A stretch of DNA of 64,000 nucleotides, from contig JAPMXV010000059.1 in NCBI GenBank assembly GCA_026936335.1, positions 62,001-126,000 of the forward strand, in the 5' to 3' direction. This DNA comes from Mantamonas sphyraenae STR306. Lineage: Eukaryota; Protista; CRuMs. Position numbers and translations under genes: made by a program. Position 1 is the stretch's first letter. The number at the start of each line of letters is the position of its first letter. This document shows, piece by piece, positions 13,933 to 46,000 of the stretch. Under the pieces are notes generated by a model. It saw only the letters and a program-made list of their open reading frames with translations, was not told the origin of the DNA and ran no database searches.

Positions 13933-16056
13933 CACACACACACAATGTCGTAGGGAAGCATCCAATGCATTTCCTTCCCCGTCTCTCTTCCTTTCCCTTT
14001 CCATCCACTCATCCTCCCCGTCTCCTGTCTCCGTGCTTACATCTCCAGCGTCTTGGCCTGCTCCCAGGTAAAGTCCGCATCGTCGTCCCGGCCAAAGTGA
14101 CCATAGCATGCCGTCTTGAGGTAGCGAGGGCGACGCAGGTCCAGTTCCTTCACAATCGCACCGGGGCGCAGATCAAAGTTCTTGGCCACAATCTCCATCA
14201 CCTCCTTGTTCGTCTTGGTGCCAGTGCCATACATGTCCACAAACATCGACAGAGGCTCCGCCACGCCAATCGCATACGACACCTGGAACAGGCAGCGACG
14301 GCACAGACCAGCTGCCACAAGCGACTTGGCCACCCAGCGTGCCGCATACGCTGCACTGCGGTCCACCTTGGACGGGTCCTTGCCCGAGAACGCTCCGCCA
14401 CCGTGCGCTCCCCATCCGCCGTACGTGTCAATGATGATCTTGCGACCCGTCAGACCCGCATCGCCCTGCGGTCCACCAATCACAAACTTTCCACTCGGGT
14501 TCAGATGGTACACCGTCTTGTCATCGATCCACTTGCCACACACAGGCTCAATCACCGCCTTCATCAGATCCTCCTTGATCTGCTCCTGCTCCACGTCGTC
14601 CGTGTGCTGCGTCGAAATCAACACAGTGTGCACACGCTGCGGCACCATCGCTCCGTTCTCGTTCAGGTACTCCACCACAACCTGCGTCTTGCCATCCGGA
14701 AGCACCCATGCAAGCTCTCCGCTCTTGCGCACCTCCGTCAGCTTCTTGCCCAGAGACGTCGCCAGCATGTGCGACAGAGGCATCAGCTCGGGCGTCTCAT
14801 CCGACGCATACCCAAACATGTGACCCTGGTCACCGGCTCCCAGGTCGTCGTCGTCACGGCCCACGTGCACACCCTGTGCAATGTCCGGAGACTGCTCCTC
14901 AATCGCCACAAGCACGTTGCACGTGTAAAAGTCGAATCCCTTTGTCGACGAATCGTATCCGATCTCCTTGATCGTGTTGCGCACAATGCGCTGGTAGTCC
15001 AGGTTCGCCGTCGTCGTGATCTCGCCAAACACCATGATCATTCCTGTCTTGGTGCACGTCTCACACGCCACCTTGCTGTACGGATCCTCAGCCAGGCATG
15101 CATCCAGGATCGAGTCCGAGATCTGATCGCAGATCTTGTCCGGATGGCCTTCGTTCACAGACTCGCTGGAGAAGAGGAAAGTCTCGCCGTTGCTGGACAC
15201 TGAACGGAGTGTCACACATGGTCAAACACACACACACACACACGTGTCAGTGCTTCCATGGAAGAGGCACGCCAATGTAAATGGGAGAAACAAAAACAGA
15301 AATCAGACACAGACAGACTCGTGGGGTGCCACCAAACGGTGGGATCCGGAACCTGGACTCTGCTCTCTCCTCATGCACCCTGTCCTTTCGACCTTGCCCA
15401 CGCCATGCACACAGCCCATCCTGCTCCCTCATTCCCACCACACATGTCCTCCGTCCCTCTTCTCCCCATCCACATGTATGGTGCATCCCCTCCGCCTCTC
15501 CCTGCTCCACACACCCGCTGCAAACACGCGACGCCGGAAAATTAATCCCCGCTCTGTGCACGCACGTCAAAAAGAGGAGCCACGTCGACACGCCGCCCTC
15601 CCTCACATGCACATCCTCCATTCACACGGGCCAATCCATCCATCCATCCACACATGCCCCTCTCCTTTCCCCCCATGCATCTGTGTCCTCATGTGCATCT
15701 CCCCATACGTCTCCGCTCCCGTCACAACGGACACCTTGCGCTCGCGCATGTCACACACCGCCGTCCCCGACAGCTCGCACATCCATGCACATCGCACGAC
15801 CCCTGCTCTCCTCCACATCCTCCCATCCCGTCTCCTCTCTGCAAATCTCTCCTCCATGTCGTGTGAAGCAACGGTGGAGAGGTGGGGGGGGGGGGGGGTA
15901 GGCAAGGAAAAAGTGGCAGGCGTTGCCATTCACAAAAAACGCACTCTTTGAATTTTTTGAAGTTGGGTTTTTGTCAGAATTGGGGTGGGTGGGTGCGGGC
16001 ATGGCACCACACATTGCACTCATCGTGCGTACACCCACACACATGCATTGACGATA
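13933..16056. repeat. Left arm of a ~2.1 kb inverted repeat (partner 28847-30966) containing the whole MAT gene
   Basis: Near-identical reverse complement across CDS, intron, upstream and downstream flanks. Confidence 0.92.
14037..15945 (-). CDS. MAT: S-adenosylmethionine synthetase copy 1 (A of ATG at 15945, intron 15944-15200, exon 2 15199-14037)
   Basis: [25 protein letters not shown] signatures; splicing gives [14 protein letters not shown]. Confidence 0.95.
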
Positions 16057-16142
16057 CGCATGGGCCCTGTGTACAGCGCATGCGTTCTGTGTGGAGGGAG
16101 GAAACAAGTTCCTGACTCGTCTGCGCGCAGGCAGGCACCGAA

Positions 16143-27251: not shown

Positions 27252-28754
27252 TGAGCAGTTCGTCCTCGTCCTCGTCATCGTCGTCGTGGATGCTGCTGCC
27301 GCTGCTGATCCTGGCTGTGGTGGCAGGTGGTGGCTGGGCCAAACACGTGGGACCCACTGTCATTGATGAACCGGGCATTGAGGGCCGTCTGGATTGGGTG
27401 TATGTGTCCAACTTTTGGGTGGACACGTACGGAGAGAGCAGCGTGGCCGTCACCTACAAAGCCTACTCTTCCTCCCTCTATCTCGCTTTTTACAACCACA
27501 CCGAGTGGCTGGACGTGCAGGCACGCGACAAATGCAAGGTGCGACTGGATGTCGTGGACACCACACTGGCTGCCATCCCACTGCCTCGTTCGGACGGCAA
27601 GAACGCCACAGGCACCGTCCGTCAACGCTTCCCCAAGCACTCCACACCCACCTGGTGGCACGTAGCCCTCGTCGACTGCGAAACCGCCAGTGTCAAGGGC
27701 GTCAAATACGAAATGAGCTTTCTCAACCATCCCTTCCGCGTGCTCATCCAGCAGGAGGAGTTTGGCTACGACAACCAGCGTACGCAATTCTTCTTGCCCC
27801 ACCATTTCTTCTCGCCTTGTCCACGCGTGACACCCAAACCTGACACCCACCCCACTGCACGCGCACACCCCCCCTCCCTGCCCGCTGTATCCCATCCTCA
27901 CCAACAGACATGTTTGAAATCTTTGCCGCGGCGTTGCTGCTGAGTCTCGTGCTGGCTATGGCCCACGCGTACGGCTCGTTTGTGGCGGACATCACCTACG
28001 CGCCCCTGGTGCGCCGTGTGTTGACTCTTTTCCGCGCCGCATTGGCATGCCAGGCGGGCTTCCTTGTGTGCGTGCTTGTGCACCTGATAGCATATGCCCA
28101 GAACGGTGTGGGGTCGTACTACACCCTGGTGCTGGGTCTGGCCCTGGATTTCATCGCCTACAAGCTCATGGTCCTCTTCTACATCATCATTCTCAACGAA
28201 AAGCCCGAATGGCGTCCACGCAGCAATGCCTGGGCGGTGTTTGTCATCCTGTATATTCTGGTCGACCTTGCTGCCTCTGTGGCGGTGTACCTGCAGTACT
28301 TTGATGTCCACTATATGCCTCCCTCAACCTGGACCACCCGTACAGCACCTTTTCCGGCATTGTGCGTGCCGGACTGCAGATTGTGCCCTTTGCGTATTAC
28401 ATCAAGCTCGTGGTGGCCAACCGACCCAGTCACCATGCACTCAGCAACACCCAAAGGCTTCTCTTTGTCATGGGGGCCGTCTGGCTCATGGCTGTGCCCG
28501 TCATTGCTATGATCACTCTGGCTCTGCCTGCGTATTATCAGTGGAAGATGATGATTGGCTGCTATCTGGCCTCAAACGCAATCGTCCTCCTCACCATGGC
28601 CTACTTCCTCTGGCCCCCACGCGCAAACTCCAGCTTCAAAAGCAACTTTGAAGACGACGAGTTGCGTCACGCCATCGGCGACATGGAGCTCCACTACAGC
28701 CAGTTGGCGGGCGATGACGTGTTTGACGAAATGGAAGATGAAGCTCGCCCTTGA
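27252..28754 (+). CDS. GPR180/TMEM145-like (GOST) protein with luminal domain and multi-TM region (intron 27780-27907; frame break or 50-nt intron near 28296-28345)
   Basis: Signal peptide, WWHVALVDC, YEMSFLN...EEFGYD, several TM helices, LWP near the end of the TM region. Confidence 0.65.
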
Positions 28755-28846
28755 TCGAGGGCAAGGCACTGTTGGGGGCTGAGGGAGGGGAAGGGAGAGG
28801 ATTGGGCTGAGGGAGGGGAAGGGAGAGGATTCGTGTTGCCCACGCC

Positions 28847-30966
28847 TATCGTCAATGCATGTGTGTGGGTGTACGCACGATGAGTGCAATGTGTGGTGCC
28901 ATGCCCGCACACACCCACCCCAATTCTGACAAAAACCCAACTTCAAAAAATTCAAAGAGTGCGTTTTTTGTGAATGGCAACGCCTGCCACTTTTTCCTGC
29001 CTACCCCCCCCACCCCCACCTCTCCACCGTTGCTTCACACGACATGGAGGAGAGATTTGCAGAGAGGAGACGGGATGGGAAGGATGTGGAGGAGAGCAGG
29101 GGTCGTGCGATGTGCATGGATGTGGAGCTGTCGGGGACGGCGGTGTGTGACATGCGCGAGCGCAAGGTGTCCGTTGTGACGGGAGCGGAGACGTATGGGG
29201 AGAAGCACATGAGGACACAGATGCATGGGGGGAAAGGAGAGGGGCATGTGTGGATGGATGGATGGATTGGACGGTGTGAATGGAGGATGTGCATGTGAGG
29301 GAGGGCGGCGTGTCGACGTGGCTCCTCTTTTTGACGTGCGTGCACAGAGCGGGGATTAATTTTCCGGCGTCGTGTGTTTGCAGCGGGTGTGTGGAGCAGG
29401 GAGAGGCGGAGGGGATGCACCATACATGTGGATGGGGAGAAGAGGGACGGAGGACATGTGTGGTGGGAATGAGGGAGCAGGATGGGCTGTGTGCATGGCG
29501 TGGGCAAGGTCGAAAGGACAGGGTGCATGAGGAGGGAGCAGAGTCCAGGTTCCGGATCCCACCGTTTGGTGGCACCCCACGAGTCTGTCTGTGTCTGATT
29601 TCTGTTTTGGTTTCTCCCATTTACATTGGCGTGCCTCTTCCATGGAAGCACTGACACGTGTGTGTTGTGTGTGTGTTTGACCATGTGTGACACTCCGTTC
29701 AGTGTCCAGCAACGGCGAGACTTTCCTCTTCTCCAGCGAGTCTGTGAACGAAGGCCATCCGGACAAGATCTGCGATCAGATCTCGGACTCGATCCTGGAT
29801 GCATGCCTGGCTGAGGATCCGTACAGCAAGGTGGCGTGTGAGACGTGCACCAAGACAGGAATGATCATGGTGTTTGGCGAGATCACGACGACGGCGAACC
29901 TGGACTACCAGCGCATTGTGCGCAACACGATCAAGGAGATCGGATACGATTCGTCGACAAAGGGATTCGACTTTTACACGTGCAACGTGCTTGTGGCGAT
30001 TGAGGAGCAGTCTCCGGACATTGCACAGGGTGTGCACGTGGGCCGTGACGACGACGACCTGGGAGCCGGTGACCAGGGTCACATGTTTGGGTATGCGTCG
30101 GATGAGACGCCCGAGCTGATGCCTCTGTCGCACATGCTTGCGACGTCTCTGGGCAAGAAGCTGACGGAGGTGCGCAAGAGCGGAGAGCTTGCATGGGTGC
30201 TTCCGGATGGCAAGACGCAGGTTGTGGTGGAGTACCTGAACGAGAACGGAGCGATGGTGCCGCAGCGTGTGCACACTGTGTTGATTTCGACGCAGCACAC
30301 GGACGACGTGGAGCAGGAGCAGATCAAGGAGGATCTGATGAAGGCGGTGATTGAGCCTGTGTGTGGCAAGTGGATCGATGACAAGACGGTGTACCATCTG
30401 AACCCGAGTGGAAAGTTTGTGATTGGTGGACCGCAGGGCGATGCGGGTCTGACGGGTCGCAAGATCATCATTGACACGTACGGCGGATGGGGAGCGCACG
30501 GTGGCGGAGCGTTCTCGGGCAAGGACCCGTCCAAGGTGGACCGCAGTGCAGCGTATGCGGCACGCTGGGTGGCCAAGTCGCTTGTGGCAGCTGGTCTGTG
30601 CCGTCGCTGCCTGTTCCAGGTGTCGTATGCGATCGGTGTGGCTGAGCCTCTGTCGATGTTTGTGGACATGTATGGCACTGGCACCAAGACGAACAAGGAG
30701 GTGATGGAGATTGTGGCCAAGAACTTTGACCTGCGCCCCGGTGCGATTGTGAAGGAACTGGACCTGCGTCGCCCTCGCTACCTCAAGACGGCATGCTACG
30801 GTCACTTTGGCCGGGACGACGATGCGGACTTTACCTGGGAGCAGGCCAAGACGCTGGAGATGTAAGCACGGAGACAGGAGACGGGGTGGATGAGTGGATG
30901 GAAGGGAAAGGAAGAGAGACGGGGAAGGAAATGCATTGGATGCTTCCCTACGACAATTGTGTGTGT
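28847..30966. repeat. Right arm of the inverted repeat (partner 13933-16056)
   Basis: Reverse complement of the left arm with a few SNPs and small indels. Confidence 0.92.
28958..30865 (+). CDS. MAT: S-adenosylmethionine synthetase copy 2 (A at 28958, intron 28959-29702, exon 2 29703-30865)
   Basis: Protein identical to copy 1; caaagA|gtgcgt ... ttcag|TGTCC. Confidence 0.95.
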
Positions 30967-31137
30967 TTGTGCGGGTTCTCTCTCTCCCTCCCTCGCTCTC
31001 TCTGTGCATGTGTGTGTGTTTGCATGGTTGTGGAGCGGTGCGCGCGTAGATGCACAACAAACCCTCTCCATTTCTTCCAGTCGCATTCACCCACCCACCC
31101 ACCCACCCATTCACTCGGCAAGGGGCAGTCAGCAATA

Positions 31138-33924
31138 ATGCACGATAGCGACTCCTCAGACGACGATGACCACGGGCGGCTGCTGGGCAGCGGGTCGTTC
31201 AACAGCTTTGCCTCGACACAGATGTTTGCCAGCCGGCTAGCGGAGCTGGAGGACGACGACAACGACACATGTGACATGTGCTGTGGCGGAAGACTGCGCT
31301 GCTGCACACGGACACCAAAACGACGATATGGATTTGGCACGTGCCTGGTGGTGCTTTCGGTGCTGTGTCTCGTCGGCGGACCCCTCCTGTCCGACTGGGT
31401 GCACAGCATCACCGTGCAACAGGTGCGCGACCAGGCAGTGGTCGACAGTTTCAACTCGCCTGGCTATGCACAATGGGTCATCAACAACCAAACCGACGCC
31501 GTGCCTCTCTATCTCAACTTTTACTTCTTCAACCTCACCAACCACGAGCTCGTACGCACTGCTGGCGCAAAACCCGTTTACAAAGAGGTGAGTGCGCGGT
31601 CCCATCACCCGTCTCTCTCTCTGCCCTCCCACCACCACCATCCCTACTCGTCCCTTTCCCCAGCCCTGCCCGTTTTTCTGGTCTTTGCTTCACCCCGAAT
31701 CCCGAATCCTGAATACTCACGCGCGTTTTCGCTCACCGGTCACAGCTCGGACCCTACTGCTTTCGCAAGTACAGATACAGGTTCAACATGACATTTTACG
31801 ACCAGGGCAACCGCGTACGGTACTGGCGCAAGGTGAGTGGTGGTTTGTGTGTGCCAAGGGGTTGTCTCTGTTGCGTGAAGGCGCTGACCCTTCCCTCCCT
31901 CGCGTCCCTCGTGTGTGTCATATCGACCACCACGCCATGACCACGTTCCTGTGCTCCAGCGATGGTACATCTTTGACGCCGAACGGTCGCAGAAGCTGAG
32001 TGGGATGCCACTGGACGCAGAGAGGGACATCATTGTCAACGTGAATCCCATCTACCAAGGGGCCCTCGCCCAGGCGGGGAGTGAGGTGCAACTCACCGTG
32101 GCACTGGTGGCACCGTTCATCCAACAGCATTTGACACTGTTCCAACAGCGCGTGTTGCCCATTGCAGTGGCACGTCGCACGCCTTCGACGCTTGCTCCTG
32201 TGCTGACCAACCTGACGGCGTTGATTCAGGCCACACTCGGGTTGGATGCCACGCAGGCCTGGGAGCACCTTGTGACACAGTGGGCCAATGCCACGTCTCC
32301 CACGCCTGCCTCGCCTCTGTGGGATCACATGCACCTGGCAGCGGTCAACGGGGGTGTGGCAAGTGGGATCAGCGTCGAGGCAGCAAGCCGGCTGCTGAAC
32401 AAAGGCGTGGCCCAATCCATCATGTCGGCGACATACGCAGACAGCCAAGGATGGTACAATGCCAGCCAGGAGGGCAATGCAGGGTCATTGGCCACACGTG
32501 TGCAGCTTGCAGGGGAGTTTGGATTGTCGCGTGCCCAGGTGGATGTGGTTGCCGCGTGGCTGCGTGACGTGCAGGTCAACGTGGTTATCAAATCGCTGCT
32601 GGATGCATATGGCCTCAAAGCCAGTGAGGTGGACCGGTTGGGGTACATGCAGTGGAGCATGGGCAATGTGACGGTGCCTGCGTATGCAAGTGCGCCGTCG
32701 CTGTTGCCCGACTTGCCGAACAAGCACAAGTATTCGATGGCGGTGTGGGCCCATTCCTTGTTTATTCCACGCAGCGATTACAGTTTGTCGGCTCGGGCGA
32801 CGATGAAGCTGCTGACGGGGCCGTGGGCAATCACGGTGCCGACGAATCTGGGCGATTTCGTGGCGGCCAAGCTGGCCAAGGACGACCACTTGATTATGGA
32901 AAAGTGGGGCATCAGTCACAACCAGTCCACGGTGCTGTCGGCGTACATTACGTACATGACGGGCGAGTTTGCAGAGCCGTACCTGAAGTATGTGGCCTTC
33001 CCCGCGGGCGAGGGCATCATGAGTTGGCGCACACCCAACCAATTGCTGTGGGGCTACGAAAACAAACTGGCGGGCATGTTGGATCCCAGCATGGCGTTTG
33101 TGCAGTTCCAGTACAACGACACGACGGAGGAGTCTGTGAAGAAACACGCGGGCCTGAACGACTACTGGACGGGCAAGGATGACATTGAAAAGGCCATGCA
33201 GTTCTACAAATGGCACAACATGACCCAATTGGAGGGTGTGTGGGCGGAACCGGAGGTGATCAAAGGCACGGATGGGCAGACGTTTCGGCCGTTTCTCAAC
33301 GCCACCGATCCGGTGTACGTGTGGGAGGCAGACCTGTACCGCTCACTCATCATGCAACCCGTAGGGGACGTCTCCTACCTGGGCGTCAAGATGCAACGGT
33401 ATGGCATCGACAATCGCACGTTTGTGCCCTCGACACGGTACTACTCGCACTTTCCGGGCTTTGCCAACATGAGCGGAGTCAACTTTGGCGCACCGGTGTT
33501 CTACAGCAAACCGCACTTTCTGGACTGCGACACCAAGTGGCTGGACAAGGTGGATGGGATCACGGCACCGAGCAGGGAGGGCCACGACACGTGGCTGGAC
33601 GTGGAACCCTTCTCTGGGATCACCATGCACGCACACAAACGGTTCGGGGCAAACTCGTACATTGCCGAAGGGGACACCACACTGAACTTGTACAACGGAG
33701 AAATCACAAAGGGACTGATGTATCCGTTGTTCTGGCTGGACGAAAACGGTATGATCACGCAGGCGCTGGCGGACAAGTTCCACCTCTTGTACATTTTGTT
33801 TGCGGCGGAAAAGGTGCTGTTCTACGCAGGCATCAACCTGGGTGGCATTTGCGCCTTTAGCGCCTTTCTGGTGCTGTTCTGGCACTGTTTGTGTGGCGCA
33901 CGCGAGGAGGAGATTGCCTGGTGA
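31138..33924 (+). CDS. CD36/scavenger receptor class B (LIMP-II/Lmp-like; introns 31588-31745, 31833-31959)
   Basis: N- and C-terminal TM helices; FYFFNLTN, KP-YKE-GPY, GTDG-F-P, PVFYSKPHF, LDVEPFSG. Confidence 0.88.
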
Positions 33925-37902: not shown

Positions 37903-39951
37903 ATGAGCTCCAAAGGGCAGAAGAGACTGCTGTTTGGCGTGCAGAAGGAAATCCACAACAAAATGAATGGGCGTGTGTTGTGTGTGGACTTGGGTCGGCG
38001 GGAAATCACCAACAACCACAACGGAGCACACAAACAGAGCTTCACCTTTAGACAACTCGAGTCGGTGAGCCATGAGGACAAACCGCACATGTTTCGCGTG
38101 TGCTTTGCCGACCACAGGCCGTATCTGTACGAAGCACAGACGCAAGCCACGGCCAACGCCATCGTCCACCTGTTGGCCCTCGTCACCAAAGACTCTCACG
38201 CCTTGGACGCCGTCGAGCCGGACTCTGACGGGTGGGTGGAATTGCCTCCTTACGACAACACATCTAACTCCACACGCATCATGTGTCTGGACGTGTGCAC
38301 TCCAGCCAAAGCCGGTAGGTGACGCCCGAACAGAGTCGGCGTGGATGCGCGAATTTCCGTGAGCCACGAAATGGGTTTTTTGGACACGTTTTGCGTGCTT
38401 CCGCGGCACACACAGAGACACAGACACACAGAGACACATGCAGAGGGATGTATAGCGTGGCACTGACACAGGCAAACGATGCACCCACTGTCGCACGCAG
38501 GGCAAGACGTGAAAGTGAAAGGGACGCTGACGTCCAAGACACGACGTGTGGCTCTGTACATGAACGGATGGATGACGGTGTCGGCTGTGGATGGGGAATA
38601 TCCACTGGAGGTGATGGAGATGAGTGCATGCACGGCCAAGGCCATGCCCAAAGCACCCACAGAGCTGCAAGTGACGTGCACCGCGTTTGCCTCGCAACCC
38701 AGCGTCACCATGAGATGCAAGTCGGACAAGGCCGTGCAGGGCTGGCTGGACATGTTGAATGACGACCAGTGGAAGGTAGGGGACGAGGTGGTGGACGAGG
38801 ATGAGGCCATGGCAGCCAAGGCAGCAGCCACGGCCTCTTCTTCCTCCTCCTCCTCCTCCTCCTCATCATCAGGCTCTGGTGGCAAAGGCACAGGAAAAGA
38901 CGCCGGGAAGGATGATGGGAACACAAATGGTCAGGGCAGCGGCGGCAAGGAAGGTGGTGCCAAGAAGGAGGGTGGGGACAAGGAGAAGGAAAAGGAGAAG
39001 GAGAAGGAAAAGGCTGCTGCGGCAAGGGACAAGCGATTGTCAATCTTCCACCTGGGACCGGTGGGAGGGCACGAGGACAGGTCGGAAAAGAAGCAACGTG
39101 CGTTGGAACTGAAAAGGATGCAGTTTGAAGACCAGTTGGTGTTGGATCGGCGGGAGGCACGCGTGCAGGCAGAGTTGGAGGAGAAGGCGAGGCAGAAGCG
39201 CTTGGAGGCGGTGGAGTTGGATTCGATGAAGATTCACGACGAACACAGCAAGGCCATGGCGTTTGTGCGTCGCAAGGAGAAGCGGAATCTGGCGGAGATG
39301 GTGCGACACGACAAGGTGGCACACGCAAGGAGGGTGGCACGGTGGGAGCGGGAACGGGAACAGATTGCAAACGAGTACAGCCTCATGCTGGGCACGTATG
39401 CCACCAAGTTCAAGGTGGAACGCCTCAAGAAAAAGGTGGACACGTACTGGGTGCGAGTCATGTGCGAGCAGGGAAGCGAGGGCAGCAGCAGCAGCAGCAG
39501 CAGTAGCAGCAGCAGTGGTGGTGGTGGTGGTGGAAGTGGGAGTGAGCATGTACACGCGTACTATTTGGGATGGGAAAAGTGCAAAGGGGCCGACCAGGGG
39601 CCGGTGGACTTTGAGCTGGACGTGAAGCGTGCGATTGCCTTGAATGGGGACACCGAAGTGGTTGCCGGCGTGGACGGATGTGTGGAGTTTGAAAAGCACG
39701 CCAAAGCCGTGGGAACACCGGAGAATTGTCTTTACGTGCGTCAGGGCAAGCAAACGGTGGCGTTGGAGCTTTCGTCCAAGGAGGAGCGCGATTTGTGGCG
39801 CCAAACCCTGAGACTGTTTGCCCAGCCTGAGCAGCTGCTTAAGGATGCCATCCACCAGCCACCGGACATGCGCACTGTGCATGTGTTGTACGGCGACATT
39901 GTGGTGGAGGATGACGATGAACAAGGCGACGGGAAGAAGAAAACAGCTTGA
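37903..39951 (+). CDS. Uncharacterised protein with probable multiple PH-like domains and a central coiled coil (intron 38315-38500)
   Basis: Beta-rich segments ending in PH-type helices (SDKAVQGWLDML; SKEERDLWRQTL); charged central helix. Confidence 0.55.
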
Positions 39952-40035: not shown

Positions 40036-43000
40036 TTAGTCATCGCTAGCACCCGTTTTGTCCAATTCGGCCATCTCTGTGTCCTGCACCGCAGAGCGTC
40101 TGCTCTTCGCACGGTTGGATCCCGGTTGCAGGCCACGCCAGACGTCCAATGCGATGTAGGCGACGCACACGACGACAACGGAGAGGGCAATGCCCACGGT
40201 GAGGTAGTTCCATGCCTCTCGTGCCAGAGTGTCGGATTCGGTGACAAAAACCATGCCCAGCAGGAGGAGCACGAGGCTTTCAACGAGCAGGACGCTCTCG
40301 AGGCTGTTTTGGGCCTTGGTCAGGTAGGGCATCATGTTGAAATGAACCAAAGTGGAGGCGCCAAGGACCAGCAAGCCCATGAGGCCTTGCAACGCCGGCT
40401 GCGACGTCCCATAGAGCTTCACGGCCACGACGGCAGCCTTGCGCAGCAGCAGCATGGACTCAAACCAGAAATAGTTTGCGCTGAACTTGCCAAACAGTGT
40501 GCTGAACTTTTGCTGGAAGACCTCGCTGTTTCGGTCTTCCTCAGTTTTGCCCGACCTGACAACAAGGAGGAAGATGACGGGCGTACCGATGACGTACAGG
40601 AGGCCAAAGACCAGTGCGGGCAGGATGAGACGCGAGTGCATGTCTCCGGACCAGCACTCGATGTCTGGGGCGACGTCCAGCACACTCACGCCGGTGCGCA
40701 CCTCGGTGCAGTCAAACAGCTCCAACACACGGGTGCACAGGGTGATGTACAGCAGTCCCATGCTAAAGAGCATCTCGTTGACCAGGTAGCGCAGCGATGT
40801 GGCTCCCACACGGTCGGCTTCTGTGAAAAAGGTGGAGAACCGGTATCGAAGGGTTGCCAGGGCGTAGCGAATGGACGACAACGACGCATCGGGTTCCTCA
40901 CAAAAGGAGGGATGGTTGGTGCGGAAGGAGGAGCCACGCGAACGCACCCACTCGGAATGCACATACTCCAGCAGAAGGCGCAGGAGTAGGCCACACAGGA
41001 CGATCACAGGCAGGGCCATGGTGACCCAGAAACGGGTCTCCACCGTCCAAGCACTGGCGAGGCTGCACTCGGGAGCGGCCGTGTCCAGATTGAAGTTGGC
41101 CAGAGAGAAGTAGCTCAACACCTCCTGCACGGATTCGGGCCAATTGACTCTGTAATCACCAAAGGTGCTCATGACCTGCAGGTGAGTGATGGCCAAGGCA
41201 GCCACCGTCCCGGTCGCCTTGGATTCGTTGCGTGCCTGACGGCGCACGAAGAACAGGTAGGCGATGAGGAGGACGGCCAGAGCAACCACGGTTGCGCCGT
41301 TGCCTTCACGGCACGGCTGGCACGTATCACTCAATTTGTAGTAGCCGGCAGAACAGGTGCCACACAACAGACCCTCGTACCCCTTTGCACACTGCTGGCC
41401 GCCGTTTCCACCCCCGCCGACGCAGGCCTCCTTGACGGCACACTGGACAAACTTGAGGTTGTCGCCCGAACCCGCTGCAAAGAAGCCCTGCTGGGGCACG
41501 GGCTGCAGCAGGCGTCCTGCGCATTCGGCGTTGCTGGGGCACGGTGCACACGCCTTGCCTGGCTGTGCGTCTGCACGGTAGAAGCGCGGGCTGCACTGGC
41601 AATCTTCGATTCGAGTGGGGGTGTCGACCACGGGTGCGGTGTTGAGAGGACACGCAATGGGTTCCGCAAGGATGCGAAATACCACCGAGGAGGAGGCGCT
41701 GAAGTGGGCCCCATCGTCCAGGCTGACCTTGACCAGATACACGCCCTGCGGATCGGAAACGGGCGATCGGAATGTGATTGCCGTGGGTGCGATGGTCAGC
41801 GGCGTCACAACCGGGTTGCCTCCCAGTTGGATCTGGACTGCGGAGCTGTTGAAGAAACCAGTGCCTTGAATGGTCACGACAAGGTCCTGGTCTGGGTTTT
41901 TGACAGCCGGATCGACAAGAGTCAACGTTGGCGACGGATACGTGGTCACAGTGCGCCCGGTGTCGACAAAGTCAATGCCGTTGAGTGCCAGATGGACACT
42001 CAACGTGGCCGCGGCTCCTTCCAGACGCTTGTATGCAGGCAGGGTGACGAGCATGTCGCTGGGTGTGGCTACAGGACGCGTTCCAGAGACGGCAACTGAT
42101 TCCCATCCTTCGGCATCCTTGAGCACCACCTTGGGTACCACAGACAAGGTTGACATGGAACCTTTCAGGCGGATGGTGGTGCCACCGGAGAGAGGCATGG
42201 CTGGGGGAAACACCGACGCAACTACCGGCAAATGATACACAACCATGGGCTGCGGCAGTGCCGTGTAGCTTGTGCCACCGTTGCTCGACACCTCCACCGT
42301 CTGTGATCCCACAGACAGTGACACAGGTACCGTGCAACGCACTTCACTGTTTGACACCACAACCACTCCGCTCGCTGCCACGCCACCGATGCGTACAGCC
42401 ACGGCATCACCCAAAATACTCGCGCCGAAGATGGTAATGGATCTCCCACTGGCAACCACGACCTGCGCCGGTTGCACACTCGTCACACTCGGTGCAAGCA
42501 CACGCAGCTCGGCACCAGGTGCAGAGCTCTCAACCCCGTCATTCAGCGAGATCGCAAGGTTCACCGTGGTCACAGGCAGTGCAGGGATCGCACAGTCCAC
42601 CGCGCTACTGTTCACAAACACACACCCTGACGGAAGAGACGTCACAATGCTGCTCACGTTCACAAACCCACTGCCCGTCACCGTCACCCGTGTTGCCCGT
42701 TGCGATGCCACTTCCTTCGGTTGCACACCCGTCACACGCACAGCTGAATGGTACACAAACTGCCCAGCACTCACGAAATCCTCGCCGTTCAGCGCCACAT
42801 ACACTCCCACAGGCCCCGCATACCCACCCTCCGTGGCAGGTGTGCTGAACCGCAGCTGCGTGCCATCCACTTGCACAGGAACAACCACCCGGCTGAATGT
42901 CGTCGTGTTCACACGCACACGGATCCCACTCAACTGTGTGTACTCCCCAAACAGGCTCACTGACGTCCCGCCGCTGCTCAAGCCCAATGCAGGTTGCGTA

Positions 43001-46000
43001 TGGTTGAACACAGGTTGCTTGTACACAATCAGTGGCTGCAGCAGTGCCGTGTAGCTGGTGCCACCGTTGCTCGACACCTCCACCGTCTGTGATCCCACAG
43101 ACAGTGACACAGGTACCGTGCAACGCACTTCACTGGTTGACAACACAACCACTCCGCTCGCTGCCACGCCACCGATGCGCACAGCCACGGCGTCGCCAAG
43201 CATGTTGGATCCAACAATCCTCACCGCACGCCCACTGCTCACTGGAACCTGCGCCGGTTCCACACTCGTCACACTCGGTGCAAGCACACGCAGCTCGGCA
43301 CCAGGTGCAGAGCTCTCAACCCCGTCATTCAGCGAGATCGCAAGGTTCACCGTCGTCACAGGCAGTGCAGGGATCGCACAGTCCACCGCGCTGCTGTTCA
43401 CAAACACACACCCTGACGGAAGAGACGTCACAATGCTGCTCACGTTCACAAACCCACTGCCCGTCACCGTCACCCGTGTTGCCCGTTGCGATGCCACTTC
43501 CTTCGGTTGCACACCCGTCACACTCACAGCTGAGTGGTACACAAACTGCCCAGCACTCACGAAATCCTCGCCGTTCAGCGCCACATACACTCCCACAGGC
43601 CCCACATACCCACCCTCCGTGGCAGGTGTGCTGAACCGCAGCTGCGTGCCATCCACTTGCACAGGAACAACCACCCGGCTGAATGTCGTCGTGTTCACAC
43701 GCACACGGATCCCACTCAACTGTGTGTACTCCCCAAACAGGCTCACTGACGTCCCACCGCTGCTCAAGCCCAATGCAGGTTGCGTACGGTTGAACACAGG
43801 TTGCTTGTACACAATCAGTGGCTGCGGCAATGCCGTGTAGCTGGTGCCACCGTTGCTCGACACCTCCACCGTCTGTGATCCCACAGACAGTGACACAGGT
43901 ACCGTGCAACGCACTTCACTGGTTGACAACACAACCACTCCGCTCGCTGCCACGCCACCGATGCGTACAGCCACGGCGTCGCCAAGCATGTTGGATCCAA
44001 CGATCCTCACCGCACGCCCACTGCTCACTGGAACCTGCGCCGGTTCCACACTCGTCACACTCGGTAGAACTGTGCGCAGCGACACTTGACCGGCCAGATT
44101 GGTCTGTGTAGCATCCAACTGGCCATTCATCGACACAAGAACCTCGTAATCCCCCCCTGACAGAGCTGGCACCTCACAACGAATTGCGCTTTGGTTCAGC
44201 ACCTGCGCAGAAACATCCACAGTTCCAAAACGCACGGTGACCATCCCTGTGTCCACAAATCCGCTACCGACGATGGTGACGTTTGCAGCGAGATTTGCGG
44301 CCACAGTCTTGGGCAGGATTGTTTGCAGCACCGGACGCGTTGCAACCGTCATCACATACCCGGCGACGGATGCAAAGTCTCGTCCGTTGGTCGTCATCGA
44401 TACAACTGTTTGTCCAAGTGGCAGTGCAAGCGGGGCGGTGCATCGAATCAGGGTTGAGGAGACGTAGGTTGCAGTCACCTCGGTGGTGTTGAATTTGCAG
44501 CGCAGATTGGGTCCTGTTTCGTTGAATCCGGAGCCTGTCAGTGTCATCACCGTTCCACCGATGTTGGTGCCCCATGCAGGATTCACTGTATCCAGCTTGA
44601 ACAGGGTCAACTCCACCCATGGGCTCCACTGCTGTCCGTTCAGTGCAATTCCGACCTCGCCACGTCCAGGCGCGTCGAGCTGCGGAAGAACCACGGTTAC
44701 AGACGCTGCAGACACCCACGTTCCGGGTTGTACTGATACAGTGCCGGCCGACGAGCGGAATCGCACACGGATCTCGCTGCTTGTGTTGGCAAAGCTCCTG
44801 CTTTCATCCGGCGACAGTGCCAGCTGCACACCCTGGCCATCGAGAGGGGCGGTCGAGGGGCTCACCGACTTGAGGCCGTGCGGTTCGTACAGGGCAAAAG
44901 TGTGCTGCTGCGCCAGATCCTGTTGGCCATTCGGAGCGAGGCTGACGACGGCCGCCAGTGTCTGCCCGGCTGCCAACGGTGGAATTGTGAATGCCTGCGT
45001 CGATACGGAAACCACCCCGTTCACAAAAGACCCATTGAGAGTGCTGACGGAACCCCCGGGGGGCGAAATGGTGACCCGAGGCGTGTCGCGGCCGTCGATG
45101 AGCGAGCCTCCCTGCAGATTCACCTGTGTGCCTCCTGTGCTCAGTCCACTGTGTACATCCAACGAGGTGAATGTGCTGTTGTACGCAAAGAAGAAGCCAC
45201 CTGAGACTGCGTGCCACTGCTGGCCATTCAAACTGACGGCCACTCCCTGGTTCCCGTACTGCAATGGGTTGCCTGTGCTGCACGATACTGTGGTCGTGCT
45301 AACGCCTGTGGCAGCAGAGACAGTGCTCCCAAACATGCACCGAGCCAATGACGGGTCGCGGTTGGACAAATCGGCGCCAGCCACCACAACAGTGGAAAAC
45401 CCTGTTTGCGGCCCGCTTTTCACAGAAAATGGGCCAAACTGGGTCCCAAAGTAGTCCATGGTTGGTGGGATATAGCCGGGCTCGGTTTGCACATACACTT
45501 TAACGTTTGCATTGGCAAAGCCTAGAGAGGGCGAGGTGCAGTTCATGCGGCTGGTTGAAACGACCGTGCACGGGCCACTGGTGGCCGTGGTGCCGTTGGT
45601 TGCCTCTACTGTGATGGTGTTGCCATTGACAAAGTTTCCACCGCGCACATCGAGGATGGTTCCACCCTCGATGGGCGACAACACAGGGGAAACTGTTTGC
45701 ACAGAGGCAAACGTGACATTGCACACAGTGCTGCCCAGCGCAAAGTTGGTTGTCCCCGTTGCACATTCAAAGCATGTGCTCAGACCCGTCACGTTTCCAA
45801 ACGTGCCCGGTGCACATCGTGGGCAATCTTCATCGCGTTCGCTCGCTTGCGGCTTGGCCAGGATGTTTCCTGAGAATCGACCCAGCGCCGTACATCCGTT
45901 TTGGTGCACTCGTGTTCTCACGAGGAGACCGTCTTCTGGACCGCCCAGATTGGGTTGTGTGAGTGTGCTGGTGGTGCTGCCAACCACAAAGAGCGAGCCG

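What the first reader, a model, noticed from the sequence alone, without database searches (positions are those of the whole stretch)
28940..29720. SAM synthetase start codon is created only by splicing a 744-nt intron (A|TG)
Seen: the MAT ORF has no in-frame ATG before the conserved [10 protein letters not shown]. Joining caaagA|gtgcgt (28958/28959) to ttcag|TGTCC (29702/29703) yields ATG TCC AGC AAC, giving [10 protein letters not shown]. Copy 1 has the same structure (15945/15944 to 15200/15199). This is the longest intron I modelled in the window, and it carries many upstream ATGs, including an out-of-frame ATG at 29683. Known: SAM synthetase is feedback-regulated by splicing in mammals (MAT2A intron retention via METTL16) and C. 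elegans (m6A at the sams 3' splice site). Inference: retention or most alternative acceptors remove the start codon, making an all-or-none translation switch that may respond to SAM.
Basis: partly seen in the sequence, partly recalled or inferred. Interest (0 to 1): 0.78.

Follow-up and report, generated by a model that had tools for sequence, protein, structure and literature searches.

The report
Intron splits SAM synthetase start codon
Both copies of this protist's SAM-synthetase gene lack an ATG where the protein should begin and likely get it when a long first intron is spliced out (A|TG); an unrelated alga shows the same predicted layout, but no known SAM-sensing signal is present, so it is probably an ordinary, always-spliced intron and not a switch.

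Summary
Coordinates confirmed: GT at 28959, AG at 29701-2, 744 nt (745 in copy 1); the unspliced frame is closed by a stop and has no ATG before [10 protein letters not shown]. The A|TG model is the best reading, but no RNA holder was listed, so the junction is unproven. For it: 29702 is the first AG after both branch-point candidates; the split ATG has the best start context of 35 candidates; the predicted N-terminus fits homologues; gene spacing fits. A Parmales alga (L069) has the same phase-1 split in its SAM synthetase, with a 60-nt intron. Against 'only by splicing': four in-frame ATGs lie 19-33 codons upstream, so the claim needs a transcription start after 28903. The SAM switch is unsupported: no METTL16 motif, no Rfam riboswitch, whole-intron fold z = +0.28, and most retained coding introns are null anyway. 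Leads left: two internal donors outscore the real one, a second acceptor lies 7 nt downstream, and some local folding is above controls. Closest named relative: Mantamonas plastica (87%). The scan noted split start codons in other genes before; no eukaryotic SAM synthetase case was listed. Verdict: likely real, rare but known layout; regulation speculative.

The parts
28848..30956 (+). Copy 2 of the duplicated SAM synthetase gene unit (promoter region to 3' flank)
   Evidence: Inverted repeat arms and alignment with copy 1
28859..28903 (+). Four ATGs (28859, 28880, 28889, 28901) in frame with MAT after splicing; would add 19-33 residues if transcribed and used
   Evidence: ORF 28859..29179; frame walk; start-context scores -0.6 to -5.5
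28904..28958 (+). Predicted first exon: short A/C-rich leader ending in the A of the start codon (5' end inferred, not mapped)
   Evidence: 28919-28958 has 20 A in 40 nt, top 0.1% of window 40-mers; best start context of 35 candidates
28959..29702 (+). Predicted 744-nt phase-1 GT-AG intron inside codon 1
   Evidence: Donor GTGCGT (same hexamer in 4 of 29 other introns), score 6.8 with 5 of 29 leave-one-out scores lower
29143..29148 (+). Internal donor-like site (GTGTGT, score 8.4); possible cryptic or alternative 5' splice site
29331..29347 (+). Internal branch-point-like TTGAC overlapping a donor-like GTGCGT (29336, score 8.7), followed by CACAG; possible alternative donor or internal acceptor
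   Evidence: present in both copies
29418..29465 (+). 12-bp stem with a purine-rich loop; not above chance
   Evidence: 18 of 40 shuffles give at least one such stem
29651..29681 (+). Two branch-point candidates, CTGAC (A at 29654) and TTGAC (A at 29680)
   Evidence: First AG after either is 29701-2, at 48 and 22 nt; other introns show 7-54 nt
29700..29709 (+). Predicted acceptor CAG (29700-2) and a second CAG 7 nt downstream (29707-9) that would destroy the ATG
   Evidence: a YAG within 10 nt after the acceptor occurs in 1 of 29 other introns
29703..30865 (+). Second exon: TG of the start codon plus the rest of an uninterrupted SAM synthetase (MAT) coding sequence
   Evidence: Pfam S-AdoMet_synt_N/M/C above cut-off; 87% identical to Mantamonas plastica MAT
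15200..15944 (-). Copy 1 of the intron (745 nt)
   Evidence: 7 substitutions and 5 indels against copy 2, none at the donor, branch candidates or acceptor
14037..15199 (-). Copy 1 second exon; protein identical to copy 2
   Evidence: 6 of 6 coding differences are at third codon positions and silent
15945..16056 (-). Copy 1 predicted first exon and promoter region, back to back with a 4E-BP gene

Best explanation
This is likely an ordinary, constitutively spliced first intron that falls after the A of the start codon of a housekeeping SAM synthetase gene in a Mantamonas-like protist. Shown in the sequence: no usable ATG at the protein's start, GT-AG ends, branch-point candidates, an A-rich stretch ending in A before the GT, and two copies encoding the same protein. 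Inferred: transcription starts about 40-55 nt before the donor; the major spliceosome joins 28958 to 29703, making AUG; unspliced or mis-spliced RNA makes no enzyme, as with most coding introns; the intron's length is probably that of a promoter-proximal, expression-supporting first intron. The same intron position in a Parmales alga suggests an old or repeatedly gained intron site, with no conserved interior.
For: Acceptor 29702 is the first AG after both branch candidates, which forces a phase-1 N|TG codon. Only 2 of the 30 best-scoring of 78 upstream GT sites give ATG, at scores 6.8 (28959) and 1.0. Split ATG context scores 4.8, best of 35 candidates and in the top 1.1% of 2209 window ATGs (model from 15 hand-picked starts). 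The predicted N-terminus puts EGHPD at residue 16 against a median of 15 in 118 homologues, and 11 of 120 begin MSSN; M. plastica begins MTSAANDGETFLF. With this exon the gaps to the neighbours are 203 and 197 nt, inside the 9-356 nt range of 24 of 25 gene gaps; without it they would be about 900. The duplicated unit starts about 110 nt before the donor. Parmales locus L069: A|GTACGT...ACTAAC...CTCTAG|TG, 60 nt, no in-frame genomic ATG; removing it gives 45 of 45 residues of the Triparma pacifica transcriptome protein; the NCBI model GMI63182.1 uses the same two junctions in the wrong frame (residues 2-62 match); GMH73249.1 is 'partial' and lacks just the Met. No SAM-sensing signature found. 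Start-codon introns are efficiently spliced in highly expressed Yarrowia genes.
Against: No RNA evidence for this organism. The donor is on the weak side (A at -1 in only 2 of 29 others) and ranks 5th of 78 GT sites; two internal donors score higher, whereas 0 of 29 other introns have a better internal donor (biased, since their own donors trained the model and only 2536 interior nt were scanned). The intron is 1.7 times the next longest and differs in composition (G 0.39 against 0.27). Six overlapping 100-nt windows in 29100-29560 fold with z about -2.0 to -3.8, against a minimum of -2.53 in 111 control windows. My own gene finder, which cannot model a split ATG, chose other, mutually inconsistent models for the two copies. 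Expression support by the intron is assumed from other organisms.
Confidence: 0.62

Rival explanations
1. The intron is real and is a SAM-feedback splicing switch: at high SAM a downstream donor (29143 or 29336), an internal acceptor (29347), the second acceptor (29709) or retention is favoured, which removes the AUG and leaves upstream ORFs, as in fungal TPP-riboswitch introns.
For: MAT is feedback-regulated on its RNA in mammals, nematodes and fission yeast (passages of PMC8208822, PMC9778287, PMC6961541). Competing donors outscore the productive one, the layout used in Neurospora THI4/THI5 (passages of PMC5997356). Tandem YAG is seen in only 1 of 29 other introns. ATG excess, TGCATG five times (P = 0.035 against trinucleotide shuffles) and local sense-strand folding.
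Against: No TACAGARAA in the window; 11 one-mismatch hits against 10.2 expected, none in either MAT unit. Acceptor reads TTCAG|TGT. Rfam: 6 weak hits, all far below gathering score, none a riboswitch. Whole-region z = +0.28. The AG is predicted paired (0.94-0.97), but 7 of 29 control acceptors reach 0.94 or more in the 60-nt window and 4 of 29 in the 110-nt window. Donors scoring 8.7 or more occur about 0.5 per kb in the window by chance. Folding z-scores shrink under 3- and 4-mer shuffles. The +4 base is C, not the A class sensitive to U6 m6A loss (passages of PMC8163875). The Parmales intron is 60 nt, so a long interior is not part of the shared layout; the intron matched none of 83 fetched loci.
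Confidence: 0.12
2. The same intron is spliced but the mRNA starts further upstream, so an upstream in-frame AUG (28901, 28889, 28880 or 28859) is used and the split codon is an internal Met; the enzyme has a 19-33 residue extension, or two isoforms are made.
For: The frame is open for 33 codons upstream in both copies and 4 of 5 ATGs in the duplicated upstream stretch are in frame.
Against: Their contexts score -0.6 to -5.5 against 4.8; only 4 of 118 homologues have N-termini that long; in copy 1 this stretch lies within about 140 nt of the divergent 4E-BP start and looks like the shared promoter (inference from the G-rich to A/C-rich switch near 28900).
Confidence: 0.1
3. A different first exon supplies a complete ATG: donor 28891 to acceptor 29709 (MSAINGETFLF), donor 29336 to 29709 (18 extra codons), or donor 29658 with a 44-45 nt intron (MEALTL...).
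For: These donors score 6.5, 8.7 and 7.0, similar to or above 28959, and give open frames in both copies. MSAIN- resembles M. plastica MTSAAND- about as well as MSSN- does.
Against: 29709 is not the first AG after the branch candidates. Start contexts are -4.1, -7.1 and -4.7. GTGTGG is not among the 29 donors, and the shortest accepted intron is 76 nt. The donor-29143 model is broken by an indel in copy 1.
Confidence: 0.12
4. There is no intron: transcription starts close to 29690 and translation begins at the in-frame GUG at 29702-4, giving the same protein.
For: The unspliced frame has GTG at exactly the position of Met1.
Against: An out-of-frame ATG at 29683 would capture scanning unless the leader is under 20 nt; branch-point and acceptor signals are in place; gene spacing would be about 900 nt; in Parmales the NCBI model has the junction and transcriptome proteins of relatives start with Met.
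Confidence: 0.04

Closest known systems
Introns that disrupt the start codon (phase 1 or 2 in codon 1), noted as 'relatively rare' by Nielsen and Wernersson 2006 (PMC1626468, passages seen); Yarrowia 'start codon' introns, 42 of 2421 (PMC13309789, section 26 read)
   Same: GT-AG intron at codon 1 of a conserved housekeeping gene; the AUG exists only after splicing if the leader is short.
   Different: Unusually long for this genome (744 against median 109 nt); the same position is predicted in MAT genes of two distant groups (a Mantamonas relative and Parmales), which my searches did not find in print.
C. elegans sams-3/4/5 3' splice-site m6A switch by METT-10 (PMC8208822, passages seen)
   Same: SAM synthetase pre-mRNA; a nearby second acceptor that would give a non-productive RNA; acceptor within a predicted hairpin.
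   Different: Needs UACAG|AAAC in the loop of a stem-loop; here the acceptor is UUCAG|UGU with the AG in the stem, and no motif is present.
Mammalian MAT2A intron retention controlled by METTL16 (passages of PMC8208822 and PMC9778287)
   Same: Same enzyme; an intron whose removal is needed for protein.
   Different: Terminal intron and six 3' UTR UACAGAGAA hairpins there; first intron, uninterrupted coding exon and no motif here.
Fungal TPP-riboswitch introns (Neurospora THI4, THI5/NMT1, NCU01977; PMC5997356, passages seen)
   Same: Long 5' intron, upstream productive donor, downstream donor-like sites whose use would keep upstream ORFs.
   Different: No TPP or SAM aptamer found by Rfam; alternative donor use is not shown.
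S. pombe sam1 5' UTR SAM-binding RNA (PMC6961541, passages seen)
   Same: 5' RNA of a SAM synthetase gene in a unicellular eukaryote.
   Different: A 185-nt AU-rich leader acting on translation; here the predicted spliced leader is about 40-55 nt and the long sequence is intronic and G-rich.

Membership tests
Start-codon-disrupting spliceosomal intron | GT-AG ends, branch point and phase 1 or 2 within codon 1 | tested here: met
Start-codon-disrupting spliceosomal intron | No complete upstream in-frame AUG in the mRNA | tested here: inconclusive
   Four in-frame ATGs at 28859-28901 with poor context; transcription start unmapped
Start-codon-disrupting spliceosomal intron | Junction seen in mRNA | not testable with these tools
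   No RNA holder was listed; indirect support only from Parmales
METT-10/METTL16 3' splice-site m6A switch (C. elegans sams) | UACAG|A(G/A)A motif at the acceptor | tested here: not met
   Acceptor TTCAG|TGT; no exact motif in the window, none with one mismatch in either MAT unit
METT-10/METTL16 3' splice-site m6A switch (C. elegans sams) | Motif in the loop of a stem-loop | tested here: not met
   AG predicted in the stem of a 6-bp hairpin; similar pairing in 7 of 29 control acceptors
METT-10/METTL16 3' splice-site m6A switch (C. elegans sams) | METTL16 orthologue in the genome | not testable with these tools
   No whole genome is held
MAT2A/METTL16 retained-intron system | Retained terminal intron and 3' UTR UACAGAGAA hairpins | tested here: not met
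   Coding exon uninterrupted to the stop; no motif
SAM or TPP riboswitch (Rfam families) | Match to a curated aptamer model | tested here: not met
   28700-31200 at E up to 5: 6 hits, miRNA and sisRNA models far under gathering score
Riboswitch-type alternative-donor intron (fungal TPP) | Competing downstream donor that retains upstream ORFs | tested here: inconclusive
   Donor-like sites 29143 and 29336 outscore 28959, but about 0.5 such sites per kb occur by chance
Any SAM-feedback splicing system | Splicing changes with SAM level | not testable with these tools
   Needs cultures or condition-matched RNA
S. pombe sam1-type SAM-binding leader | Direct SAM binding by the 5' RNA | not testable with these tools
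   No sequence model exists in the passages seen
Eukaryotic MAT (SAM synthetase) | Three S-AdoMet_synt domains | tested here: met

The most novel reading that the evidence does not exclude
The start-codon intron of SAM synthetase is an ancient eukaryotic intron position, kept in CRuMs and Parmales, and in this Mantamonas-like protist it has grown into a SAM-sensing splicing switch that uses neither METTL16 nor any known riboswitch: structured RNA in 29100-29560 steers the choice between the weak AUG-making donor and stronger downstream donors.
Probability: 0.08. Interest if true: 0.82.

Novelty: new member of a known kind. Interest (0 to 1): 0.3.

Why it matters
As it stands: a practical annotation point and a small evolutionary lead. 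A split ATG made one public Parmales MAT model come out in the wrong frame and probably left another without its Met, so such genes are easily mis-annotated. The same rare intron position in two distant eukaryote groups may be inherited from an early eukaryote or gained twice, which can be tested on genomes. If the switch were real it would be the first SAM-responsive splicing control outside animals that my searches found, in a lineage near the base of Amorphea, and possibly a new SAM-sensing RNA.

Tried and rejected
No whole genome is held, so METTL16, RBFOX-like proteins and genome-wide intron statistics could not be checked. No RNA holder was listed; this is no evidence either way. METTL16 motif, Rfam riboswitch, C/D-box snoRNA core (no strict box C), G-quadruplex and AATAAA/TGTAA scans of the intron were negative. 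A hidden protein gene in the intron: four ORFs tested had no Pfam hit and the best coding score, 13.6, is at noise level. A mobile or repeated element: the intron matches only copy 1 and GT-repeat scraps. The hairpin over the acceptor and the 12-bp stem are not above controls. CATG and GCATG excess vanishes under trinucleotide shuffles (P 0.44); only TGCATG stays marginal. Assembly artefact for the two copies is unlikely, as 6 of 6 coding differences are silent third positions; misplaced haplotypes are not excluded. A viral-collection scan gave 3 intronless loci with intact starts and nothing relevant. The bacterial promoter scan is not applicable. Of 80 metagenome MAT loci, 21 were flagged as long or intron-bearing; 1 of 21 (L069) has the split ATG, and the others show a genomic ATG. 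Literature searches for split start codons or intron control of MAT in protists listed no paper on this layout; the library lacks most subscription papers. No supplements were read. PMC10492846 (passages) was used only as lineage background: mantamonad genes are mostly single-exon. PMC7247714 (passages) was used for intron-mediated enhancement in general.

Full report
Setting. The window is a compact, intron-poor eukaryotic genome of about 58% GC. The gene is a SAM synthetase (MAT): all three Pfam domains pass their cut-offs. Its best hit is Mantamonas plastica at 87%, and the two are sisters at 100/98 in a 21-row tree. I therefore treat the organism as Mantamonas-like (CRuMs), at lineage level only. 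No whole genome is held and no RNA holder was listed, so everything about splicing below is inference from DNA and from relatives.

Observation. The unspliced MAT frame is closed at 29678-80 and has no ATG before [10 protein letters not shown]. The first internal ATG (29861) would remove 52 residues. The two copies form an inverted duplication of about 2.1 kb that begins about 110 nt before the donor. They encode the same protein; 6 of 6 coding differences are silent third positions, and the intron has 7 substitutions and 5 indels, none at the splice signals.

Is the gene model right? I built a rough gene finder and kept 29 of its 56 introns by hand as a reference. The 27 dropped were shadow-strand or doubtful models, the two MAT models and two probably real Arf introns. 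The 29 are 76-442 nt long, with donors mostly GTGAGT (7), GTACGT (7) and GTGCGT (4). The MAT donor is thus a normal type, though weak: score 6.8, above only 5 of 29 leave-one-out scores, and 5th of 78 GT sites upstream of the acceptor. The acceptor at 29702 is the first AG after both branch-point candidates, which makes the split codon N|TG. The split ATG has the best start context of 35 candidates and lies in the top 1.1% of 2209 window ATGs, behind a 40-mer in the top 0.1% for A content (the model rests on 15 starts). The resulting N-terminus has typical length (EGHPD at 16, median 15 in 118 homologues) and 11 of 120 homologues start MSSN. Neighbour gaps become about 200 nt, as elsewhere in the window. 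My gene finder cannot split an ATG and picked different models for the two copies. Of 90 donor-acceptor-ATG combinations with introns of 76 nt or more, several remain formally possible; they are listed as rivals.

The frame upstream of the donor is open for 33 codons and holds four in-frame ATGs. 'Created only by splicing' therefore needs a transcription start after 28903. Poor contexts, short homologous N-termini (4 of 118 as long) and the back-to-back 4E-BP gene in copy 1 favour a late start, but it is unmapped.

An independent parallel. Among 80 metagenome MAT loci, 21 were long or intron-bearing, and one, L069, has the same layout: A|GTACGT, a branch-like ACTAAC, CTCTAG|TG TCT ACC, 60 nt, with a stop upstream and no in-frame ATG. 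Its main exon is 100% identical over the aligned part to an NCBI protein of 'Parmales sp. scaly parma' and 93-94% identical to Triparma proteins. Removing the intron gives ATG and 45 of 45 residues of the T. pacifica transcriptome protein. The NCBI model uses the same two junctions but in another frame, and the T. laevis f. inornata model is 'partial', starting at residue 2. So a split ATG in MAT is very likely real in Parmales, which raises the odds here. The other 20 loci, among them diatom-like and fungus-like ones (labels from sequence resemblance), show a genomic ATG. Shared ancestry and parallel gain cannot be told apart with two cases.

Is it a SAM switch? The known systems were checked against their papers (passages only). 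The nematode switch needs UACAGAAAC at the acceptor in a hairpin loop, and MAT2A needs UACAGAGAA hairpins in the 3' UTR (PMC8208822; PMC9778287). The motif is absent: 0 exact hits in the window, 11 one-mismatch hits against 10.2 expected, none in either MAT unit. Rfam finds no riboswitch. The region folds no better than shuffles (z +0.28, 12 of 20 shuffles as good). The AG sits in a predicted 6-bp stem, but so do 7 of 29 control acceptors in the same test. The donor has C at +4, outside the A4 class that depends on U6 m6A in fission yeast (PMC8163875). The all-or-none argument is weak: most retained coding introns are null, and in Yarrowia start-codon introns are the best spliced and mark highly, stably expressed genes (PMC13309789 section 26). 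Start-codon-disrupting introns are known and 'relatively rare' (PMC1626468). The Parmales intron shows that the layout does not need a long interior.

What keeps the switch alive. The intron is far longer and more G-rich than its neighbours. Two internal donor-like sites outscore the productive one, and 29336 overlaps a branch-point-plus-CACAG element; this recalls fungal TPP introns with competing donors (PMC5997356), but about 0.5 such donors per kb occur anywhere in the window. A second CAG lies 7 nt after the acceptor, seen in 1 of 29 others. ATGs are in excess. Six overlapping windows fold at z about -2.0 to -3.8 on the sense strand, beyond most of 111 control windows, though the effect shrinks when 3- and 4-mers are preserved. 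Fission yeast shows that a SAM-binding RNA need not match Rfam (PMC6961541; the inference is mine). These are post hoc leads; I give the switch 0.12.

Mechanism committed to. A short A-rich first exon ends in A; the spliceosome removes 744 nt using a branch point at 29680 or 29654 and the first AG; the join makes AUG in an aaagAUGU context and yields [10 protein letters not shown].... Splicing is probably constitutive, and the long first intron probably supports expression, as promoter-proximal introns do in other organisms (not tested here). Shown: signals, frames, duplication, homology. Inferred: transcription start, junction use, constitutive behaviour, any benefit of length.

Novelty and score. 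New member of a known kind. The scan's notes hold other split start codons in fungi, yeast and an arthropod, nothing near this window, and no eukaryotic MAT case among those listed. One note led me to the TPP paper and one to the GUG rival. The shared position with Parmales is the only new element and is worth a genome survey. Interest 0.30.

Noticed in passing
L069:2797-2859 (contig Ga0302116_1001879): Parmales SAM synthetase with the same predicted A|TG split (60-nt intron); the NCBI protein GMI63182.1 uses this junction in the wrong frame, and GMH73249.1 lacks only the Met.
   Followed up: yes
window 16025-16130 (+): Possible 106-nt 5' UTR intron of the divergent 4E-BP gene (Pfam eIF_4EBP). 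Its donor lies inside the duplicated MAT unit, so copy 2 would carry an orphan piece of it, which suggests copy 1 is the original site.
   Followed up: partly
window 28776-28831: Perfect 28-nt tandem duplication just left of the copy 2 boundary; the right boundaries of both copies end at GT-repeat tracts.
   Followed up: no
window 29044-29298 (+): 84-codon ORF inside the intron with about 10 Met codons; copy 1 keeps it open through two compensating 1-nt indels. No Pfam hit, weak coding score; probably a by-product of ATG-rich sequence.
   Followed up: partly
window 29113-29529: Five TGCATG hexamers (6.7 per kb against 1.0-1.4 in other non-coding DNA). This is the RBFOX element in animals (recalled), but may equally be a DNA palindrome.
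   Followed up: partly
L002 (ATG 823), L076 (ATG 1234), L060 (ATG 2799): Other genomic MAT loci have acceptor-like sequence ending 8, 1 and about 45 nt before the ATG, so introns near the MAT start may be common; donors were not established.
   Followed up: partly
window, 29 accepted introns: Donor position +4 is A in 12, C in 12, T in 4 and G in 1, an unusually C-rich mix.
   Followed up: no
window 38460-38479 (+): Branch-point and acceptor-like sequence 7 nt before the ATG of the 491-codon gene, perhaps another 5' UTR intron.
   Followed up: no
window 42236-44107: Three copies of a 786-nt-period repeat inside a 2371-codon single-exon ORF on the minus strand.
   Followed up: no
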